A stretch of DNA of 63,605 nucleotides from Solirubrobacterales bacterium (GTDB lineage: Bacteria > Actinomycetota > Thermoleophilia > Solirubrobacterales > Thermoleophilaceae), in contig JBBREO010000001.1 of assembly GCA_038202855.1 (NCBI GenBank), positions 1 to 63,605 on the forward strand, in the 5' to 3' direction. Below, one piece after another: positions 1,078 to 56,024 of this stretch (its first letter is position 1; each line of letters starts with the position of its first letter). The notes beneath the pieces are model-generated. The model did no database searches, was not told the origin of the DNA, and saw only the letters and a program-made list of their open reading frames with translations. The position numbers and the translations under genes are program-made.

Positions 1078-2204
1078 GCGTCTGCCCGGCCTCCGTGGAG
1101 GAGCTCGCCGCCGCAATCAAGGAGGCCTCGCGGGGTGGCCAGTCGGTCCGCTTCTCGGGCGGCCAAACCAAATGGGGCTGGGGCGCACCGGCCCCGGAGC
1201 CCGACCTCGAGCTCTCGACCCTCGCGCTGGACCAGATCGTCGAGCACAACGAGGGTGACCTGACGGCGGTGCTCGATGCCGGCGTGCCGCTGGCCGCGCT
1301 GGCCGACAGGGTTGGCGCCGCCGACCAGATGCTGGCCCTCGACCCGCCGTGGGGCGAGTCGGCTGCCGCCACGGTGGGCGGCGCCATCGCCACCGCCGAC
1401 AGTGGCCCCCTGCGCCACCGCTACGGGTCGGTTCGCGATCTCGTCCTGGGCATGACCGTCGTGCTGTCCGACGGCACGGTGTCGAAGTCGGGCGGCAAGG
1501 TGATCAAGAACGTGGCCGGGTACGACCTCGCGAAGCTGTTCGCCGGCTCCTATGGCAGCCTCGGGACGATCGTGCGAGTGGCCGTGAGGCTGCATCCGCT
1601 GGCGCCGGCCACCGCGACCGCCGTGGGCCACTCCGACGACCCGCTCTCACTGGCCGATGCCGCCTCCGCCCTCAGCCACGCCCAGCTCGAGCTGCAGAGC
1701 CTCGACGTGCGATGGGAGGATGGCCGCGGCACAGTGCTTGGGCGCTTCGGTGGCGTCACCGCCTCTGACCCCGCAGCCGAGGTGGCCGAGTTGCTCGAAC
1801 AACGTGGGCTCGAGACAGAAGTCGAAGCCGACGACACCCCTCTATGGGACGCCCAGCGCGCCGCACAGCGCTCGACCGACGGCATCGTGGTGCGCGTGTC
1901 CGGCGTCCAGGACCAGACCGGTGCCCTGCTCGCGTTCGCGCAGGAGCACGGCGCACGGGTGGTCGGCCGAGCTGCGCTCGGCCTCTCCTGGGTGACCCTG
2001 CCCGAGCCCGGCCTTCTCGAGGCCCTGCGCACCCTGCTCGCGCCGTCGCCCTGTGTCGTGCTCGACGCGCCCGCTGCGGTCCGCGACGACCTCGATGCGT
2101 GGGGACCGCTCGATCCGGGCAGCACCGCTCTGATGGAGCGCGTGCGCGAGCGATTCGACCCCACCAGAACGTGCGCGCCGGGCATCCTCGCGGGAGGCAT
2201 CTGA
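1074..2204 (+). CDS. glcE: Glycolate oxidase FAD-binding subunit GlcE
   Basis: 376 aa FAD-binding PCMH-type protein (VIKNVAGYDLAKLF motif). There are 4-nt ATGA overlaps with glcD upstream and glcF downstream. Confidence 0.8.
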   Translation: MSVCPASVEELAAAIKEASRGGQSVRFSGGQTKWGWGAPAPEPDLELSTLALDQIVEHNEGDLTAVLDAGVPLAALADRVGAADQMLALDPPWGESAAATVGGAIATADSGPLRHRYGSVRDLVLGMTVVLSDGTVSKSGGKVIKNVAGYDLAKLFAGSYGSLGTIVRVAVRLHPLAPATATAVGHSDDPLSLADAASALSHAQLELQSLDVRWEDGRGTVLGRFGGVTASDPAAEVAELLEQRGLETEVEADDTPLWDAQRAAQRSTDGIVVRVSGVQDQTGALLAFAQEHGARVVGRAALGLSWVTLPEPGLLEALRTLLAPSPCVVLDAPAAVRDDLDAWGPLDPGSTALMERVRERFDPTRTCAPGILAGGI

Positions 2205-3522
2205 TGGAGGCCGGCCCCGGGAAGGATCTGGCAGGGATGCCAGATCCTTCGAATCCAATCCAGATCGGCATCTGGGACGACGACAAGCCGCCCGAGACGA
2301 CGCTGATCGACGACTGCGTGCACTGCGGCTTCTGCCTGCCCACATGTCCGACCTACCAGCTCTGGGGCGAGGAGGCCGACTCTCCGCGCGGGCGGATCGT
2401 GCTCATGCGCGCCGGCCACGAGGAGGACACCGAGCTGTCGGCCCCGATGGTCAACCACTTCGACAACTGCCTGGGCTGCATGGCCTGCGTGACCGCCTGC
2501 CCGTCGGGAGTGCAGTACGACAAGCTGATCGAGGACACGCGCGCCCAGGTGGAGCGCAAGTGGGAGCGAACGGGCGCAGACAAGTGGACGCGCCGGGTGG
2601 TGTTCGCGCTCGCGCCCCACCCCGAACGGCTGAGGTGGCTGATGCCGCTGATGCGCTTCGGCCACGCCACGCGCCTGGACCGGCTGACCGCGCGACTGCC
2701 GCTGGGACGCCTGTCGGAGGTGGCCAAGCTGGCGCCCGATCCGCCGGTGCGAAAGCACCTGCCCGAGCACGTGCCCGCCGTCGGCGAGTCGCGCGGAACC
2801 GTGGCCGTGCTGCGCGGCTGCGTGCAGCGGGTGATGTTCTCGGGCGTGAACGCCGACACCGCCGCGGTGCTCGCCGCCGAGGGCTGGGACGTGGCCGCCC
2901 CCCACGACCCGCGCTGCTGCGGCGCCCTGCAGCTGCACTCGGGCGCCGGCACCGACGCAAGCGACAACGCGAAGACGACGATCGCGGCGCTGGAGGGCTA
3001 CGAGCGAATCGTGGCCAACGCCGCCGGCTGCGGCTCGGCCATGAAGGACTACGGCCACGTGATGCGCGACGATCCCGACTGGGCCGAGCGCGCCCAGGCC
3101 TTCGCCGACAAGGTCTGCGACGTGACCGAGATCCTGGCCGAGGGCGAGCCGCGCGCGCGGCGCCACCCGGTGGAGATGAAGGTGGCCTATCACGACGCCT
3201 GCCACCTGGCCCACGCACAGGGCGTGCGCCAGCCCCCGCGCGAGCTGCTGCGCGGCATACCCGGCGTGGAGATCATGGAGCCGGCCGACTGGGAGATCTG
3301 CTGCGGCTCGGCCGGGATCTACAACGTGGTCAAGCCCGACGCGGCGGCCGAGCTGGGGCGCATGAAGGCCCAGAACCTCTTGGACACGGGCGCCGAGGCC
3401 GTGGTGGCGGCCAACCCCGGCTGCGCGCTGCAGATAACCGCACACACCCGCGGGTTGGGCAAGGAGCTCCCGGTGATCCACCCGGTCGAGCTGCTGGCCC
3501 GCTCGCTGAGAGGAGCAGGCTG

Positions 3523-3523
<1 letters not shown>
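2204..3523 (+). CDS. glcF: Glycolate oxidase iron-sulfur subunit GlcF
   Basis: Two ferredoxin-type Cys clusters (CVHCGFCLPTCP and CLGCMACVTACP) plus CCG domains (CCGA, CCGSAG). I trimmed the track ORF 1844..3523 to the ATG at 2204, which overlaps the glcE stop. An alternative in-frame ATG lies at 2237. Confidence 0.85.
2221..2250. repeat. 30-bp perfect palindromic element (13-bp stem, GGGA loop) inside the glcF 5' coding region
   Basis: The sequence is GAAGGATCTGGCA-GGGA-TGCCAGATCCTTC. It shares the 12-mer GGCAGGGATGCC with the repeats at 15118..15187 and matches 23/30 positions of the element at 30801..30830. Confidence 0.85.
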
Positions 3524-15117: not shown

Positions 15118-15187
15118 GACCGGCAGGGATGCCGGTCTGGTCGAGGGCGTCAGACCGGCAGGGATGCCGGTCTGGTCGAGGGCGTCA
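15118..15187. repeat. Two tandem 35-bp copies, each containing an 8-bp-stem hairpin (candidate bidirectional terminator)
   Basis: The unit GACCGGCAGGGATGCCGGTCTGGTCGAGGGCGTCA occurs at 15118..15152 and 15153..15187, and the two copies are identical. The stem is GACCGGCA/TGCCGGTC with a GGGA loop. The second copy contains the metK stop codon (15185-15187). Confidence 0.85.
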
Positions 15188-30522: not shown

Positions 30523-31557
30523 GTGGACCTCGCACTGCTCGACTCCGTGCTGGCCGACCTCGGCCAGCCTTCCTTCCGCGCCGCCCAGGTGTGGGAGTGG
30601 ACCGCCCGCGGGGTCGCCTCCTACGAGGAGATGACCAACCTGCCGGTCGCGCTGCGGGCCCAGCTCGCCGAGCGGGTGCCCTTGTCGTCGCTGACCGTCG
30701 AGCGCGAGGCGCTGGCCTCCGACGGCACGGAGAAGGCGCTGTTCCACACGGGTGACGGCCGGCCCCTGGAGGCCGTGCTGATGCGCTATCGAGGAGGTTC
30801 GAAGCATTCGGCATCCATGCCAAATCCTTCCCCCGGCCGGCGCTCGGTGTGCCTGTCCAGCCAGTCGGGCTGTCCGCTCACCTGCACCTTCTGCGCCACG
30901 GGCACGATGAAGTTCGGCCGCAACCTCACCCACTCCGAGATCCTCGATCAGGCGCTGCACTTCCGGCGCAAGGAGGGGATCGACCACTGCGTGTTCATGG
31001 GCATGGGCGAGCCGCTGCTCAACCTGGACAACGTGCTCGCGGCCTGCGAGCGGCTGCCCGACGTGGGCATCCACCCCTCCTCCACCACGATCTCGACGGT
31101 CGGCTGGCTTCCGGGCATCGAGCGGCTGACCGAGCGCGACGGGCCCACCATCCGCCTCGCCCTCTCCCTGCACGCCCCCGACGACGCGCTGCGCTCGGAG
31201 CTGATGCCGGTCAACGACCGCTATCCACTGGCCGACGTCCTGGCCGCCTGCCGGCGCTGGCACGAGGTGCGCCGGCGGCGGGTCTACATCGAGTATCTGA
31301 TGCTGGCCGGCGTGAACGACTCCTACGGGCAGGCGATCCAGCTGGCAAAGCTGCTCAGCCCGCACGAGGCCTTCAAGGTCAACCTGATCCCCTACAACCC
31401 CACTTCGTCGGGATTGTCCGGCTCCAGCCCGGAGGCCATCGCCGCCTTCCAGACCGCCCTGCACGACAGCGGCGTGCCAGCCACCGTGCGCCTGACGCGC
31501 GGACGTGACATCGACGCCGCCTGCGGTCAGCTGGCGGTGTCCACCGCCGCCGCCTGA
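30523..31557 (+). CDS. rlmN: 23S rRNA/tRNA adenine-C2 methyltransferase RlmN (radical SAM)
   Basis: It has FRAAQVWEW, the radical SAM cluster CPLTCTFCATG, GMGEPL and the C-terminal DIDAACGQL. I trimmed it to the GTG at 30523. Confidence 0.9.
   Translation: MDLALLDSVLADLGQPSFRAAQVWEWTARGVASYEEMTNLPVALRAQLAERVPLSSLTVEREALASDGTEKALFHTGDGRPLEAVLMRYRGGSKHSASMPNPSPGRRSVCLSSQSGCPLTCTFCATGTMKFGRNLTHSEILDQALHFRRKEGIDHCVFMGMGEPLLNLDNVLAACERLPDVGIHPSSTTISTVGWLPGIERLTERDGPTIRLALSLHAPDDALRSELMPVNDRYPLADVLAACRRWHEVRRRRVYIEYLMLAGVNDSYGQAIQLAKLLSPHEAFKVNLIPYNPTSSGLSGSSPEAIAAFQTALHDSGVPATVRLTRGRDIDAACGQLAVSTAAA
30801..30830. repeat. 30-bp imperfect palindromic element inserted in-frame in rlmN
   Basis: The sequence is GAAGCATTCGGCAT-CC-ATGCCAAATCCTTC, with 12 of 14 stem positions paired. 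It is locally AT-rich. It encodes part of an extra loop (GGSKHSASMPNPSPG) just before the radical SAM cysteines. Confidence 0.75.
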
Positions 31558-54498: not shown

Positions 54499-55910
54499 GC
54501 GCGCGCCCTCAGCGCCTCGCGCGCCACCTGCACGTCGTCGAAGGGCTCCTTGCGACCGCCCTCGAACTCCTGGCCCTGCTCGTGCCCCTTGCCGGCGATC
54601 ACCACCACGTCGCCCGCCTGCGCCGACTGCACGGCCAGGGCGATCGCCCGCCGCCGATCCACCTCGCGGTGGGCGTCCGGGCCCGCCCCCTCCATCACCT
54701 GGTCGACGATGGCGTCGGGGTCCTCGGAGCGCGGGTTGTCGGAGGTCACGATCAGGCGGTCGGCGTTCTGGGCGGCGGCCCGGCCCATCAGCGGTCGCTT
54801 GGCCCGGTCGCGGTCGCCGCCGGCGCCGAAGACCACGTGGACGGCGCCCCGACACACCTCGCGGGCGGCCCGTAGCACGTTCTCCAGCGAGTCGGGTGTG
54901 TGCGCGTAGTCGACCAGCACGCCGAAGGGCTGGCCCTCCTCGACCGGCTCGAAGCGACCCGGCACGCGCCCGGCTGCGGCCAGCGCCGCGACGGCCACCG
55001 AGGCCTCGACCCCAATCAGCCGGGCGGCGGCGAAGGCGGCCAGGGCATTGGACACGTTGAACAGCCCGGGCAGGCGGGTGGTGAGCGCCAGTGGTCCGTC
55101 CGGGGTGTCGGCGGTGAACGCGGCGCCGGTCACGTCGAAGGAGACGTCGCGGGCGCGGAAGTCCCCGCCGTCGAGGCCGAAGGTCGTGGCATCGCCCAGC
55201 TCGGCGGCCAGGCGCCGGCCGTAGGCATCGTCGGCGTTGACCACCGCCGGACCGGGACGGTCGAACAGGCGCCGCTTGGCCAGGAAGTAGGCCTCCATGT
55301 CCGGGTGGAAGTCGAGGTGGTCCTGGGTCAGGTTGGTGAACACCTTTACCGCGAAGTCGGTCCCTTCCGCGCGGCCCAACTCGAGCGCGTGGGAGGACAC
55401 CTCCATCGCACAGGCCCGATCACCGGCTGCGAGCATCCGGACGAACGTGGCCTGCAGATCGATCGCCTCGGCCGTGGTGCGCACGGCCTCCTCCTCCACC
55501 CCCCCCACGACCTGCTTGACCGTGCCCAGCAGGCCGGTCTGCAGCCCGGCGCGCTCGAGCACCTCGCGCAGGAGGAAGGCGGTCGTGGTCTTGCCGTTGG
55601 TGCCGGTGATCCCGGCCACCCGCAGCTCGGCCGTTGGGTGGCCGTAGAAGCGGGCGGCGGCGGGGCCCATGGCCGCGCGGACGTCGTCGAGCACCACCTC
55701 GGGCACGCCGAGTCCCAGCGGGCGCTGGCACACGAGCGCCGCGGCGCCGCGCGCGACGGCATCGGGGGCGAAGTCGTGGCCGTCGCTGGTGAACCCGGGC
55801 ACGCAGAAGAAGAGCGTCCCCTCGGAGACGCTCCTGCTCGAGTACGCCAGCCCCGTGACCTCGACCTCGGGGGCCCCATTCCCCATCAGGTCGCGAAGGG
55901 TCATGGTCAC
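54495..55910 (-). CDS. murE: UDP-MurNAc-L-Ala-D-Glu--2,6-diaminopimelate ligase
   Basis: It has the GITGTNGKTTT P-loop, DYAHTPDS and the DNPR motif. The start is GTG 55910 or ATG 55904. Confidence 0.93.
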   Translation of the reverse strand: MTMTLRDLMGNGAPEVEVTGLAYSSRSVSEGTLFFCVPGFTSDGHDFAPDAVARGAAALVCQRPLGLGVPEVVLDDVRAAMGPAAARFYGHPTAELRVAGITGTNGKTTTAFLLREVLERAGLQTGLLGTVKQVVGGVEEEAVRTTAEAIDLQATFVRMLAAGDRACAMEVSSHALELGRAEGTDFAVKVFTNLTQDHLDFHPDMEAYFLAKRRLFDRPGPAVVNADDAYGRRLAAELGDATTFGLDGGDFRARDVSFDVTGAAFTADTPDGPLALTTRLPGLFNVSNALAAFAAARLIGVEASVAVAALAAAGRVPGRFEPVEEGQPFGVLVDYAHTPDSLENVLRAAREVCRGAVHVVFGAGGDRDRAKRPLMGRAAAQNADRLIVTSDNPRSEDPDAIVDQVMEGAGPDAHREVDRRRAIALAVQSAQAGDVVVIAGKGHEQGQEFEGGRKEPFDDVQVAREALRARA

Positions 55911-55996
55911 CCGAAGGATGCCATAGACGGAATCGGCATCCCTGCCGATCCGTACACGGCGGCGCTCCGCCGACCGGCCACGGTCACGGGCCGTTC

Positions 55997-56024
55997 ACGG
56001 GATAGCCATGGATGGCTATCCCGT
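55997..56024. terminator. Perfect 13-bp-stem palindrome spanning the ftsI stop codon
   Basis: The sequence is ACGGGATAGCCAT-GG-ATGGCTATCCCGT. The ftsI TAG (56016-56018) lies in the right arm. The element is AT-rich relative to its surroundings. Confidence 0.6.

What the first reader, a model, noticed from the sequence alone, without database searches (positions are those of the whole stretch)
2221..2250. Second palindromic element family (GAAGGAT...GGCA-GGGA-TGCC...ATCCTTC) inserted in the glcF and rlmN coding sequences and in intergenic spacers
2221..2250 is a perfect 30-bp palindrome, GAAGGATCTGGCA-GGGA-TGCCAGATCCTTC, inside the first 16 codons of glcF. It encodes GKDLAGMPDPS.

30801..30830 in rlmN reads GAAGCATTCGGCAT-CC-ATGCCAAATCCTTC. 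It matches 23/30 positions of the glcF element, or 25/30 as reverse complement. It encodes a similar SKHSASMPNPS loop immediately before the radical-SAM CxxxCxxC. My recollection is that Bacillus and E. coli RlmN are about 12 residues shorter at this point.

The inner 12-mer GGCAGGGATGCC recurs exactly in both tandem copies at 15118..15187. A GAAGGATGCC...GGCATCC hairpin sits at 55916..55941, directly upstream of murE. All of these are visibly AT-richer than their surroundings.

The arms are SD-like (GAAGGA) and anti-SD-like (TCCTTC). Together with the first family, this suggests the genome tolerates REP/MITE-like palindromes inside ORFs.
Basis: partly seen in the sequence, partly recalled or inferred. 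Interest (0 to 1): 0.65.

Follow-up and report, generated by a model that had tools for sequence, protein, structure and literature searches.

The report
39-base hairpin repeat inserted inside genes
A previously undescribed 39-base palindromic repeat, found only in soil actinobacteria of the Thermoleophilaceae group, has landed in frame inside the glcF and rlmN genes of this genome. It adds a 13-residue loop to each protein without breaking it, a small free-living-bacterium counterpart of the Rickettsia and mycobacterial repeat elements.

Summary
At 2221-2250 two 13-bp arms flank a 4-nt centre, and the 12-mer core GGCAGGGATGCC occurs 4 times in the window against 0.02 expected.

Both coding copies are clean 39-nt (13-codon) insertions relative to orthologues:
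- GlcF relatives start MEA-GPIQI, so the true start is the ATG at 2204, not 2237. None of 120 homologues carries the insert. A roughly 96%-identical strain in a metagenome has the empty site.
- In RlmN, 102 of 120 close homologues are empty and 18 carry one to 2.5 tandem copies. Their monophyly is rejected (AU p = 2e-37).

A scan of about 185,000 species genomes with only the 5' half of the element found 38 loci, all in Thermoleophilaceae/Solirubrobacterales. Every one also had the unspecified 3' half. Twelve chance hits in other taxa lacked it.

The unit is SSG-GGAAGGATTYGGCA-NGGA-TGCCGAATSCTTC-GMRYC. About 22 independent coding sites (PolA, DnaE2, BipA, CarA, BioB, NuoG and others) use the one frame per strand that reads K-D/H-S-A-x-M-P-N-P-S. 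Other copies form 39-nt tandem arrays in operon spacers.

It is best read as a small non-autonomous palindromic repeat, like RPE, MIRU and REP. How it moves is unknown. The intergenic hairpins at 15118 and in the ftsI-murE spacer share only the apex.

The parts
2217..2255 (+). 39-nt element inserted in frame after codon 5 of glcF. It encodes (P)GKDLAGMPDPSN. The boundaries are ambiguous by 2-3 nt because CC flanks both ends. The hairpin proper is 2221-2250.
   Evidence: nhmmer E = 1e-11 against the family profile. Orthologue DNA lacks exactly 39 nt. None of 120 GlcF homologues has it. The empty site is seen in a ~96%-identical metagenome contig, and the filled site in 99%-identical ones. The RNA fold is -24.8 kcal/mol, z = -4.5.
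2204..3523 (+). glcF coding sequence. The true start is the ATG at 2204, which overlaps the glcE stop (TGATG).
   Evidence: The N-terminus MEA-GPIQI is conserved in relatives. The DNA alignment of the glcE-glcF junction agrees. Translation.
30796..30834 (-). 39-nt element in reverse orientation inside rlmN. On the gene strand it encodes GSKHSASMPNPSP, between the strand ending LMRY and the strand RRSVCLSSQ that precedes CxxxCxxC.
   Evidence: nhmmer E = 1e-13. There is a 13-14-residue gap in PDB RlmN and Cfr. Empty and filled orthologue DNA were compared. The AlphaFold model puts it in a coil with pLDDT < 50 between strands 81-88 and 107-112. The metagenome depth pile-up at 30792-30839 shows many copies in the community.
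15118..15187 (+). Two tandem 35-nt units, each with a hairpin (CA)GACCGGCA-GGGA-TGCCGGTC(TG), between a + strand gene (end 15108) and the convergent metK. They share only the apical 14-mer CGGCAGGGATGCCG with the family.
   Evidence: nhmmer matches only profile columns 12-25, E = 2.7. There is no depth pile-up, and the spacer is replaced in a related strain. Membership is uncertain.
55912..55953 (-). Degenerate family-like hairpin CGGA-TCGGCA-GGGA-TGCCGA-TTCCG in the ftsI-murE spacer, followed by GGCATCCTTCG. Its internal ATG opens a 10-codon mini-ORF (MPIPSMASFG) whose TGA overlaps the murE GTG.
   Evidence: nhmmer E = 0.011 with a 13-nt internal insertion. The fold is -22.6 kcal/mol. It is unique to the window's strain in the metagenomes.
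55997..56024 (+). A 12-bp-stem hairpin ACGGGATAGCCA-TGGA-TGGCTATCCCGT spanning the ftsI stop codon. It shares the generalised apex GGAT-N-CA-NGGA-TG-N-ATCC with the glcF element.
   Evidence: The generalised pattern has 2 matches in the window against 0.00 expected.

Best explanation
The glcF and rlmN sequences are two copies of a dispersed 39-nt palindromic repeat family confined to Thermoleophilaceae/Solirubrobacterales. The unit is SSG-GGAAGGATTYGGCA-NGGA-TGCCGAATSCTTC-GMRYC: a 13-bp imperfect stem, a 4-nt loop whose first base is free, and a short 3' tail.

Shown:
- Each copy is an insertion of exactly 13 codons relative to orthologues.
- All six frames of the unit are free of stop codons.
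- In coding DNA almost every independent copy lies in the one frame per strand that reads [G/A]K[D/H]SA[S/G][M/V/L]PNPS. This is a hydrophilic, Pro/Ser-rich peptide that sits in a loop or near a terminus.
- Copies amplify locally into 39-nt tandem arrays.
- The glcF copy is recent. It is present in 99%-identical strains and absent in a ~96%-identical strain and in all other orthologues.
- The rlmN site has been filled several times independently.

Inferred:
- The element is a non-autonomous, selfish or near-neutral mobile sequence.
- Its hairpin is the structure recognised by a still unidentified mobilising enzyme.
- Selection removes copies that fall in other frames or in buried positions.
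- Arrays grow and shrink by replication slippage.
- In operon spacers (rplN-rplX, the rpsC leader, and possibly ftsI-murE here) copies persist where the mini-ORF starting at the element's own ATG ends at or overlaps the next start codon, which would keep translational coupling.
For: - Core enrichment in the window: 4 against 0.02 expected.
- A scan of genome contigs with only the 5' 22 nt specified gave 50 loci. The 38 from 18 Thermoleophilaceae/Solirubrobacterales genomes all carry the unspecified GAATSCTTCG 3' half; the 12 from other phyla do not.
- nhmmer finds 61 copies at E < 1e-6 in about 470 kb of fetched DNA.
- Empty and filled sites:
  - rlmN: L001 empty, L003 single copy, L002 double copy.
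  - glcF: L054 and L055 empty.
  - A metagenome contig is 39 nt shorter and reads MEAGPIKIG.
  - dnaE2: L021 empty against L007 and L004 filled.
- Frame use: about 22 independent coding sites lie in the KDSA.MPNPS frame in either orientation, against 2 in other frames.
- Hosts are housekeeping enzymes.
- Conservation is at the DNA level, not the peptide level. Third codon positions in the element are fixed as A/T (GAT, GCA, AAT, CCT) in a genome with about 92% GC3. The variable sites (positions 8, 9, 14, 26) are first or second codon positions.
- The stem is maintained. At pair 8-23, C pairs with G in 6 of 8 copies and T pairs with A in 42 of 44. The murE-spacer copy has compensatory AAGG/CCTT to ACGG/CCGT changes and a symmetric 1-nt deletion in each arm.
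- The RlmN insert lies in a low-confidence coil between two strands and is missing in solved RlmN and Cfr structures.
- RlmN insert state needs at least 13 changes on the gene tree, at least 8 of them across well-supported branches. Monophyly is rejected at p-AU = 2e-37. There are five different junction types, while all 102 empty sites keep the same R-DGRRS-type junction with only conservative substitutions (R-EGRRS, K-/G-/N-DGRRS).
- Tandem joints and a 650-1300x depth pile-up on the element in metagenomes.
Against: - No mobilising enzyme, parent insertion sequence or clear target-site duplication was found. There is only an ambiguous CC at glcF and nothing at rlmN.
- Copy number per genome looks low, at 1-9 exact-pattern matches. 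That is unlike classical REP or MITE bursts.
- The patchy rlmN pattern could also come from homologous recombination between lineages rather than repeated insertion.
- Copies shared by orthologues diverge about as fast as the flanking coding DNA, so neither activity nor selection on the DNA is demonstrated.
- The translational-coupling idea for spacer copies rests on a handful of loci read by eye.
Confidence: 0.75

Rival explanations
1. The hairpin is a functional cis-acting site that has been spread or retained by selection rather than as selfish DNA. It could be a binding site for a dimeric DNA-binding protein, or an RNA hairpin that controls translation or mRNA stability.
For: - The apex GGCA-NGGA-TGCC is almost invariant and the stem shows compensatory changes.
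- Spacer copies lie exactly at gene junctions of highly expressed operons, with mini-ORFs abutting the next start.
- The window's spacer hairpins keep the apex while changing the stem.
- The hairpins are strong: -20 to -25 kcal/mol, z = -3.7 to -5.8.
Against: - Coding copies occur in both orientations with similar frequency.
- On the rlmN sense strand the RNA hairpin is weak: -11.4 kcal/mol, z = -1.6.
- 37% of copies carry a G-G mismatch in the stem.
- The element is absent from most orthologues of every host gene examined.
- Rfam has no matching family.
Confidence: 0.15
2. The 13-residue peptide (K-D/H-S-A-x-M-P-N-P-S) is itself the selected unit. It would be a portable loop with a function, such as a modification or recognition site, and the DNA palindrome would be incidental.
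For: - The same peptide is produced from both strands, and nearly all coding copies use that frame.
- The peptide is kept across species in RlmN, PolA and DnaE2.
Against: - Third codon positions are fixed as A/T against the host's ~92% GC3, while variation falls on first and second codon positions and changes residues: D/H, S/L/P, G/R/W, P/A.
- The same sequence occurs in non-coding spacers and occasionally in other frames.
- Most orthologues lack it.
- It is modelled as a disordered loop.
Confidence: 0.05
3. The similarity is coincidental or locally generated. Independent hairpin-forming duplications would have arisen in each gene, with no common origin.
For: - Tandem duplication clearly operates at these loci.
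- The 15118 hairpins and the ftsI-murE hairpins share only short cores.
Against: - Copies in unrelated genes and genomes are 85-95% identical over 37-39 nt.
- The 3' half, which was not specified in the scan, is present in all 38 clade hits and in none of the 12 outside hits.
- Shuffles expect 0.02 core matches in the window.
Confidence: 0.03

Closest known systems
Rickettsia palindromic elements (RPE; Ogata et al. 2000, as summarised in PMC10969869 and PMC3184786)
   Same: - Palindromic repeats inserted in frame into unrelated housekeeping genes.
- Each encodes a conserved extra peptide that the proteins tolerate at surface positions.
- Copies also occur in non-coding DNA.
- No transposase of their own.
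   Different: - RPEs are about 105-150 bp, against 39 nt here.
- Their hosts are obligate intracellular alpha-proteobacteria with reduced AT-rich genomes; the hosts here are free-living soil actinobacteria with 73% GC.
- No sequence similarity.
- This element commonly forms tandem arrays and yields the same peptide from either strand.
Mycobacterial interspersed repetitive units (MIRU; Supply et al. 1997, summarised in PMC3184786)
   Same: - An actinobacterial host.
- Small size (MIRUs are 40-100 bp).
- Tandem, variable-number arrays.
- Location in spacers of polycistronic operons, with small ORFs whose ends overlap the flanking genes.
- Empty and filled sites between related genomes.
   Different: - MIRUs are essentially intergenic; this family is mostly intragenic.
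- MIRUs show tetranucleotide direct repeats at filled sites; none was demonstrable here.
- Sequence relatedness was not tested.
REP sequences and their RAYT transposases (PMC3733652, PMC3184786)
   Same: - A 21-65-nt imperfect palindrome forming a stable hairpin.
- Clade-specific consensus.
- No evident target-site duplication.
- Occurs at gene ends and between convergent genes.
   Different: - REPs are extragenic and usually number in the hundreds per genome.
- REPs carry a GTAG or CGTC tag at one end, which this element lacks.
- An associated RAYT gene could not be looked for.
[quoted passage not shown]
   Same: - Coding repeats with dyad symmetry.
- Tandemly arrayed.
- Similar peptides readable from both strands.
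   Different: - PARCELs are 25-residue amphipathic domains in long arrays within membrane or surface proteins of unknown function, and are spread by horizontal transfer.
- Here, single 13-residue hydrophilic inserts sit in cytoplasmic housekeeping enzymes.

Membership tests
REP (repetitive extragenic palindrome) | 20-65-nt imperfect palindrome forming a stable stem-loop | tested here: met
   13-bp stem and 4-nt loop; -24.8 kcal/mol, z = -4.5
REP (repetitive extragenic palindrome) | Extragenic location | tested here: not met
   About 40 of 61 copies lie inside coding frames
REP (repetitive extragenic palindrome) | Conserved GTAG or CGTC tetranucleotide at one end (PMC3733652) | tested here: not met
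   The consensus SSGGGAAGGATT...CTTCGMRYC has neither tag
REP (repetitive extragenic palindrome) | High copy number per genome and an associated RAYT (Y1 transposase) gene | not testable with these tools
Exact-pattern counts in other genomes are only 1-9.
MITE | Terminal inverted repeats | tested here: met
   The element is essentially two 13-nt inverted arms
MITE | Target-site duplication flanking each copy | tested here: inconclusive
   A 2-3-nt CC(N) is possible at glcF. None is recognisable at rlmN or dnaE2.
MITE | Parent insertion sequence with matching ends and a transposase | not tested
   No genome-wide search was possible. There were no matches in plasmids and only chance matches in viral contigs.
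RPE-like in-frame palindromic element | Inserted in frame in unrelated protein-coding genes, adding a conserved peptide | tested here: met
   GlcF, RlmN, PolA, DnaE2, BipA, CarA, BioB, LeuD, NuoG and PutA all carry [GA]K[DH]SA.[MVL]PNPS
RPE-like in-frame palindromic element | Insert lies at a surface or loop position compatible with the fold | tested here: met
   The RlmN insert is a coil with pLDDT < 50 between two strands and is absent from solved homologues. The GlcF insert follows residue 5. Only these two hosts were examined.
RPE-like in-frame palindromic element | Sequence homology to Rickettsia RPE families; size 100-150 bp | tested here: not met
   The unit is 39 nt. Homology was not compared directly, but the sizes are incompatible.
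MIRU-like minisatellite | Tandem arrays of variable copy number | tested here: met
   1 to 4 or more copies with a 39-nt period (42 nt once) in rlmN, bipA, dnaE2 and the rplN-rplX spacer
MIRU-like minisatellite | Sits in operon spacers with small ORFs overlapping the flanking genes | tested here: inconclusive
   Seen at rplN-rplX (L026, ATGA overlap), miaA (L042), the rpsC leader (L026, L029) and the murE leader here. Few loci, and no expression data.

The most novel reading that the evidence does not exclude
The element is actively and site-selectively mobilised by an enzyme not yet linked to such small repeats.

The same codon boundary of rlmN has been filled at least five to eight separate times in closely related lineages, each time with a different junction. 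The glcF copy arose within a single species-level lineage. At 39 nt this would be the smallest in-frame mobile element described. Its design looks adaptive: a length divisible by three, no stop codon in any frame, and the same benign peptide from either strand. If so, it would be a tractable model for how selfish DNA colonises essential genes in free-living bacteria.
Probability: 0.2. Interest if true: 0.7.

Novelty: new member of a known kind. Interest (0 to 1): 0.5.

Why it matters
In-frame palindromic repeats in essential genes are best documented in Rickettsia (RPEs), and intragenic MITE/repeat fusions are reported more sporadically elsewhere (PMC10969869, PMC3184786). This finding shows the same phenomenon in abundant, largely uncultured soil actinobacteria with GC-rich genomes, and with a unit only 39 nt long.

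Practical consequences:
- Gene callers and orthology pipelines will see unexplained 13-residue (or 26- or 39-residue) loops and length polymorphisms in RlmN, PolA, DnaE2, BipA and other markers.
- The arrays break short-read assemblies (one search shows such a break at a related tandem hairpin).
- The presence/absence pattern gives a fine-scale strain marker for Thermoleophilaceae.

The recurrent filling of one rlmN site and the strict frame use make target choice and selection on selfish DNA directly testable.

Tried and rejected
- GNRA-tetraloop idea for the GGGA loop: rejected. The first loop base is A, C, G or T across copies.
- Alternative glcF start at ATG 2237 with GAAGGA as its Shine-Dalgarno: rejected by the conserved MEA-GPIQI N-terminus.
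- Known RNA family: none at gathering threshold. There are only chance-level hits far below threshold, sX12 and FsrA at E >= 0.03.
- Relation to the window's first repeat family (34142, 37752, 40544): no sequence similarity.
- Carriage on plasmids or phages: no plasmid match. The two viral-contig matches lack the 3' half and are chance.
- Strand asymmetry of G-T against A-C mismatches as a sign of a single-strand hairpin: the excess comes from one pair only (9-22), so it is uninformative.
- Extra conservation of shared copies relative to flanks: not seen. The element is 85-95% identical and the flanks 77-93%.
- Target-site motif or duplication: nothing convincing.
- Earlier-findings look-up by sequence: nothing.
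- The single metagenome-contig scan was not used. Patterns loose enough to catch the core-only hairpins would be swamped by chance matches.

Full report
**Observation**

The window is 72.8% G+C. At 2221-2250 it reads GAAGGATCTGGCA-GGGA-TGCCAGATCCTTC: two perfectly complementary 13-nt arms around a 4-nt centre. At 30801-30830 the sequence matches this at 23/30 positions directly and 25/30 as reverse complement.

The 12-mer GGCAGGGATGCC is exact at 2230, 15122 and 15157 on the + strand and at 55935 on the - strand. That is four matches where dinucleotide-preserving shuffles expect 0.02. The core also sits, reverse-complemented, in the ftsI-murE spacer. And the similarity between the glcF and rlmN copies continues 8 nt past the palindrome, over 38-39 nt, with the rlmN copy in the opposite orientation.

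**Both coding copies are 13-codon insertions**

*RlmN.*
- Solved RlmN and Cfr structures lack 13-14 residues exactly here.
- Among the 120 closest homologues, all Thermoleophilaceae-type, 102 have an empty site, nearly all reading ...LMRY-R-DGRRS... (conservative variants R-EGRRS and K-/G-/N-DGRRS also occur). The other 18 carry RG[SA]K[HD]SAS[MV]PNPS, and four of these have 2 to 2.5 tandem copies.
- At the DNA level L001 is empty, L003 has one 39-nt unit and L002 has two.

*GlcF.*
- Relatives begin MEA-GPIQI-GIWDD, whereas the window has MEAGP-GKDLAGMPDPSNP-IQI. None of 120 homologues has the segment.
- The aligned glcE-glcF junctions differ by exactly 39 nt.
- The conserved MEA and the TGATG overlap with glcE show that the start is the ATG at 2204, not the ATG at 2237 inside the element.
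- Public metagenome contigs that are 99% identical to the window carry the insert. Their elements have a few SNPs, one of which creates the common GATGCTTC variant.
- A contig about 96% identical is 39 nt shorter and reads MEAGPIKIG. The glcF copy is therefore a recent gain.

**A clade-specific family**

I scanned one genome for each of about 185,000 species with GGAAGGATNNGGCANGGATGCC, which is only the 5' arm and apex. This gave 50 loci.
- The 38 loci from 18 Thermoleophilaceae/Solirubrobacterales genomes all continue with GAAT[C/G]CTTCG, which the pattern did not specify.
- The 12 loci from other phyla do not, and they are about the number expected by chance.

The unit is SSG-GGAAGGATTYGGCA-NGGA-TGCCGAATSCTTC-GMRYC, 39 nt long. 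The first loop base is free (A, C, G or T), so the GGGA loop is not a conserved GNRA loop.

A profile built from these copies finds 61 copies at E < 1e-6 in about 470 kb of fetched DNA. Tandem arrays with a 39-nt period (42 nt once) are frequent. Metagenome contigs pile up 650-1300-fold on the rlmN element and show tandem joints.

Exact-pattern counts per genome are low, at 1-9.

**Coding behaviour**

All six frames of the consensus are free of stop codons. Where flanking GC3 identifies a real gene, about 22 independent sites use the frame that reads [G/A]K[D/H]SA[S/G][M/V/L]PNPS, in either orientation of the element. Only two sites (L015, L043) use another frame.

Hosts identified by Pfam are a DnaE2-like Pol III alpha, BipA, a Ser/Thr kinase, CarA, BioB, PolA, LeuD, a tetrapyrrole methylase, NuoG and PutA.

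Conservation is at the DNA level:
- The third codon positions of the insert are fixed as A or T (GAT, GCA, AAT, CCT) in genomes with about 92% GC3.
- The variable positions are first or second codon positions and change the residue.

An AlphaFold model of the window's RlmN places the insert in a coil with pLDDT < 50 between strands 81-88 and 107-112.

**Hairpin**

On the glcF sense strand the RNA hairpin is -24.8 kcal/mol (z = -4.5). For rlmN the sense strand folds weakly (-11.4, z = -1.6) and the antisense strand folds well at -19.7.

Across 57 distinct copies, pair 8-23 covaries: T pairs with A in 42 of 44 copies and C pairs with G in 6 of 8. Pair 9-22 is C-G or T-G. However, 37% of copies carry a G-G mismatch at pair 5-26. 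Coding copies occur in both orientations. This argues for a structure that matters to the element itself rather than to the host mRNA.

**History at rlmN**

With the insert columns removed, the RlmN tree needs at least 13 changes of insert state, and at least 8 of them are forced by well-supported branches. The AU test rejects a single clade of insert-bearing sequences (p = 2e-37).

The filled sites have five different junctions: S-RDG, S-GG, S-RG, S-PG and S-RSG. None of the 102 empty sites shows any of these altered junctions; they keep the R-DGRRS-type junction with only conservative substitutions. The empty sites are therefore ancestral rather than excision products, and the site was filled several times. 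Alternatively, filled alleles moved between lineages by recombination.

No target-site duplication or target motif could be established.

**Non-coding copies**

In related genomes, arrays of 2-4 units fill the rplN-rplX spacer and the rpsC leader. The ATG inside the element often opens a mini-ORF (MPNPS...) that ends at or overlaps the next start codon.

In the window, the ftsI-murE spacer holds two hairpins:
- A degenerate copy on the mRNA strand at 55912-55953. It has compensatory stem changes and a 10-codon mini-ORF whose TGA overlaps the murE GTG.
- A second hairpin at 55997-56024 across the ftsI stop. It shares the generalised apex GGAT-N-CA-NGGA-TG-N-ATCC, with 2 hits in the window against 0.00 expected.

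The tandem 35-nt hairpins at 15118-15187 share only the 14-mer apex. None of these spacer hairpins is repeated in the source communities. They are plausible relatives, not demonstrated members.

**Comparison with known systems**

The element behaves like several known repeats:
- Like RPEs of Rickettsia, it inserts in frame into housekeeping genes and adds a conserved peptide (PMC10969869, PMC3184786).
- Like mycobacterial MIRUs, it is small, forms tandem arrays, and sits in operon spacers with overlapping mini-ORFs (PMC3184786).
- It has the size and shape of a REP, but it is mostly intragenic and lacks the GTAG/CGTC tag (PMC3733652).
- Like PARCELs, its dyad symmetry gives similar peptides from both strands (PMC2996958), but the peptide and its hosts are quite different.

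It is unrelated in sequence to the first repeat family of this window. It has no match in Rfam, in plasmids or in phage contigs. Text searches found no description of such elements in Thermoleophilia.

**Verdict**

This is a real, previously undescribed member of the class of small palindromic interspersed repeats. It stands out for its 39-nt size, its strict frame use, its recurrent occupation of one rlmN site, and a datable recent insertion in glcF. The mechanism of spread is unknown.

Noticed in passing
L026:5000-5260 (- strand) and L029:1040-1300: At the start of rpsC (ribosomal protein S3), two element copies are flanked by a ~37-nt duplication of the rpsC ribosome-binding site and first 8 codons (ATGGGTCAGAAGGTCCATCCCGA). 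The upstream copy opens a 33-codon ORF running through the elements, and its TAA overlaps the real rpsC ATG (TAATG).
   Followed up: partly
L016:1-140, L026:2580-2655, L029:3625-3690: The rplN-rplX spacer of three Thermoleophilaceae genomes is filled by 2-4 tandem 39-nt units. In L026 the last unit abuts the rplX ATG, so the element's mini-ORF (MPNPS*) ends in ATGA on the rplX start, with no obvious Shine-Dalgarno.
   Followed up: partly
window 2240-2246 and 2260-2275: The heptamer CCAGATC of the glcF element's right arm recurs 20 nt downstream in host codons (ATC CAG ATC) that are conserved in orthologues. There it forms a small palindrome, CCAGATCGGCATCTGG. This may be chance, or a hint of microhomology at the insertion site.
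   Followed up: no
L021:275-340 against L007:4802 and L004:1075: The empty dnaE2 site in L021 reads GGA AAA GAT CCG (G K D P), which resembles the element's own 5' end GGG AAG GAT. Filled orthologues are exactly 39 nt (L007) or more (L004) longer. This could be a target preference, a remnant, or coincidence.
   Followed up: partly
positions +36 to +44 downstream of copies in L004, L007, L010, L011, L026-L029, L035, L041: Many copies are followed by a pyrimidine-rich SGTYTC(C)/CTYTCC tail. T is strongly over-represented at +38 and +40 (49-60% against about 13% background). The glcF and rlmN insertions lack this tail, which suggests a longer subfamily or a target preference.
   Followed up: no
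window 55905-55950 (- strand): The element-derived ATG in the murE leader opens MPIPSMASFG*, whose TGA overlaps the murE GTG (GTGA). No purine-rich Shine-Dalgarno precedes murE.
   Followed up: partly
window 15147-15163: Metagenome contigs 100% identical to the window break inside the 35-nt tandem duplication. The copy number there may therefore be uncertain in the assembly. A related strain has 118 unrelated bases in place of this spacer.
   Followed up: no
L034:4192-4272: One rlmN allele carries two units with a 42-nt period instead of 39. It is still a multiple of three.
   Followed up: no
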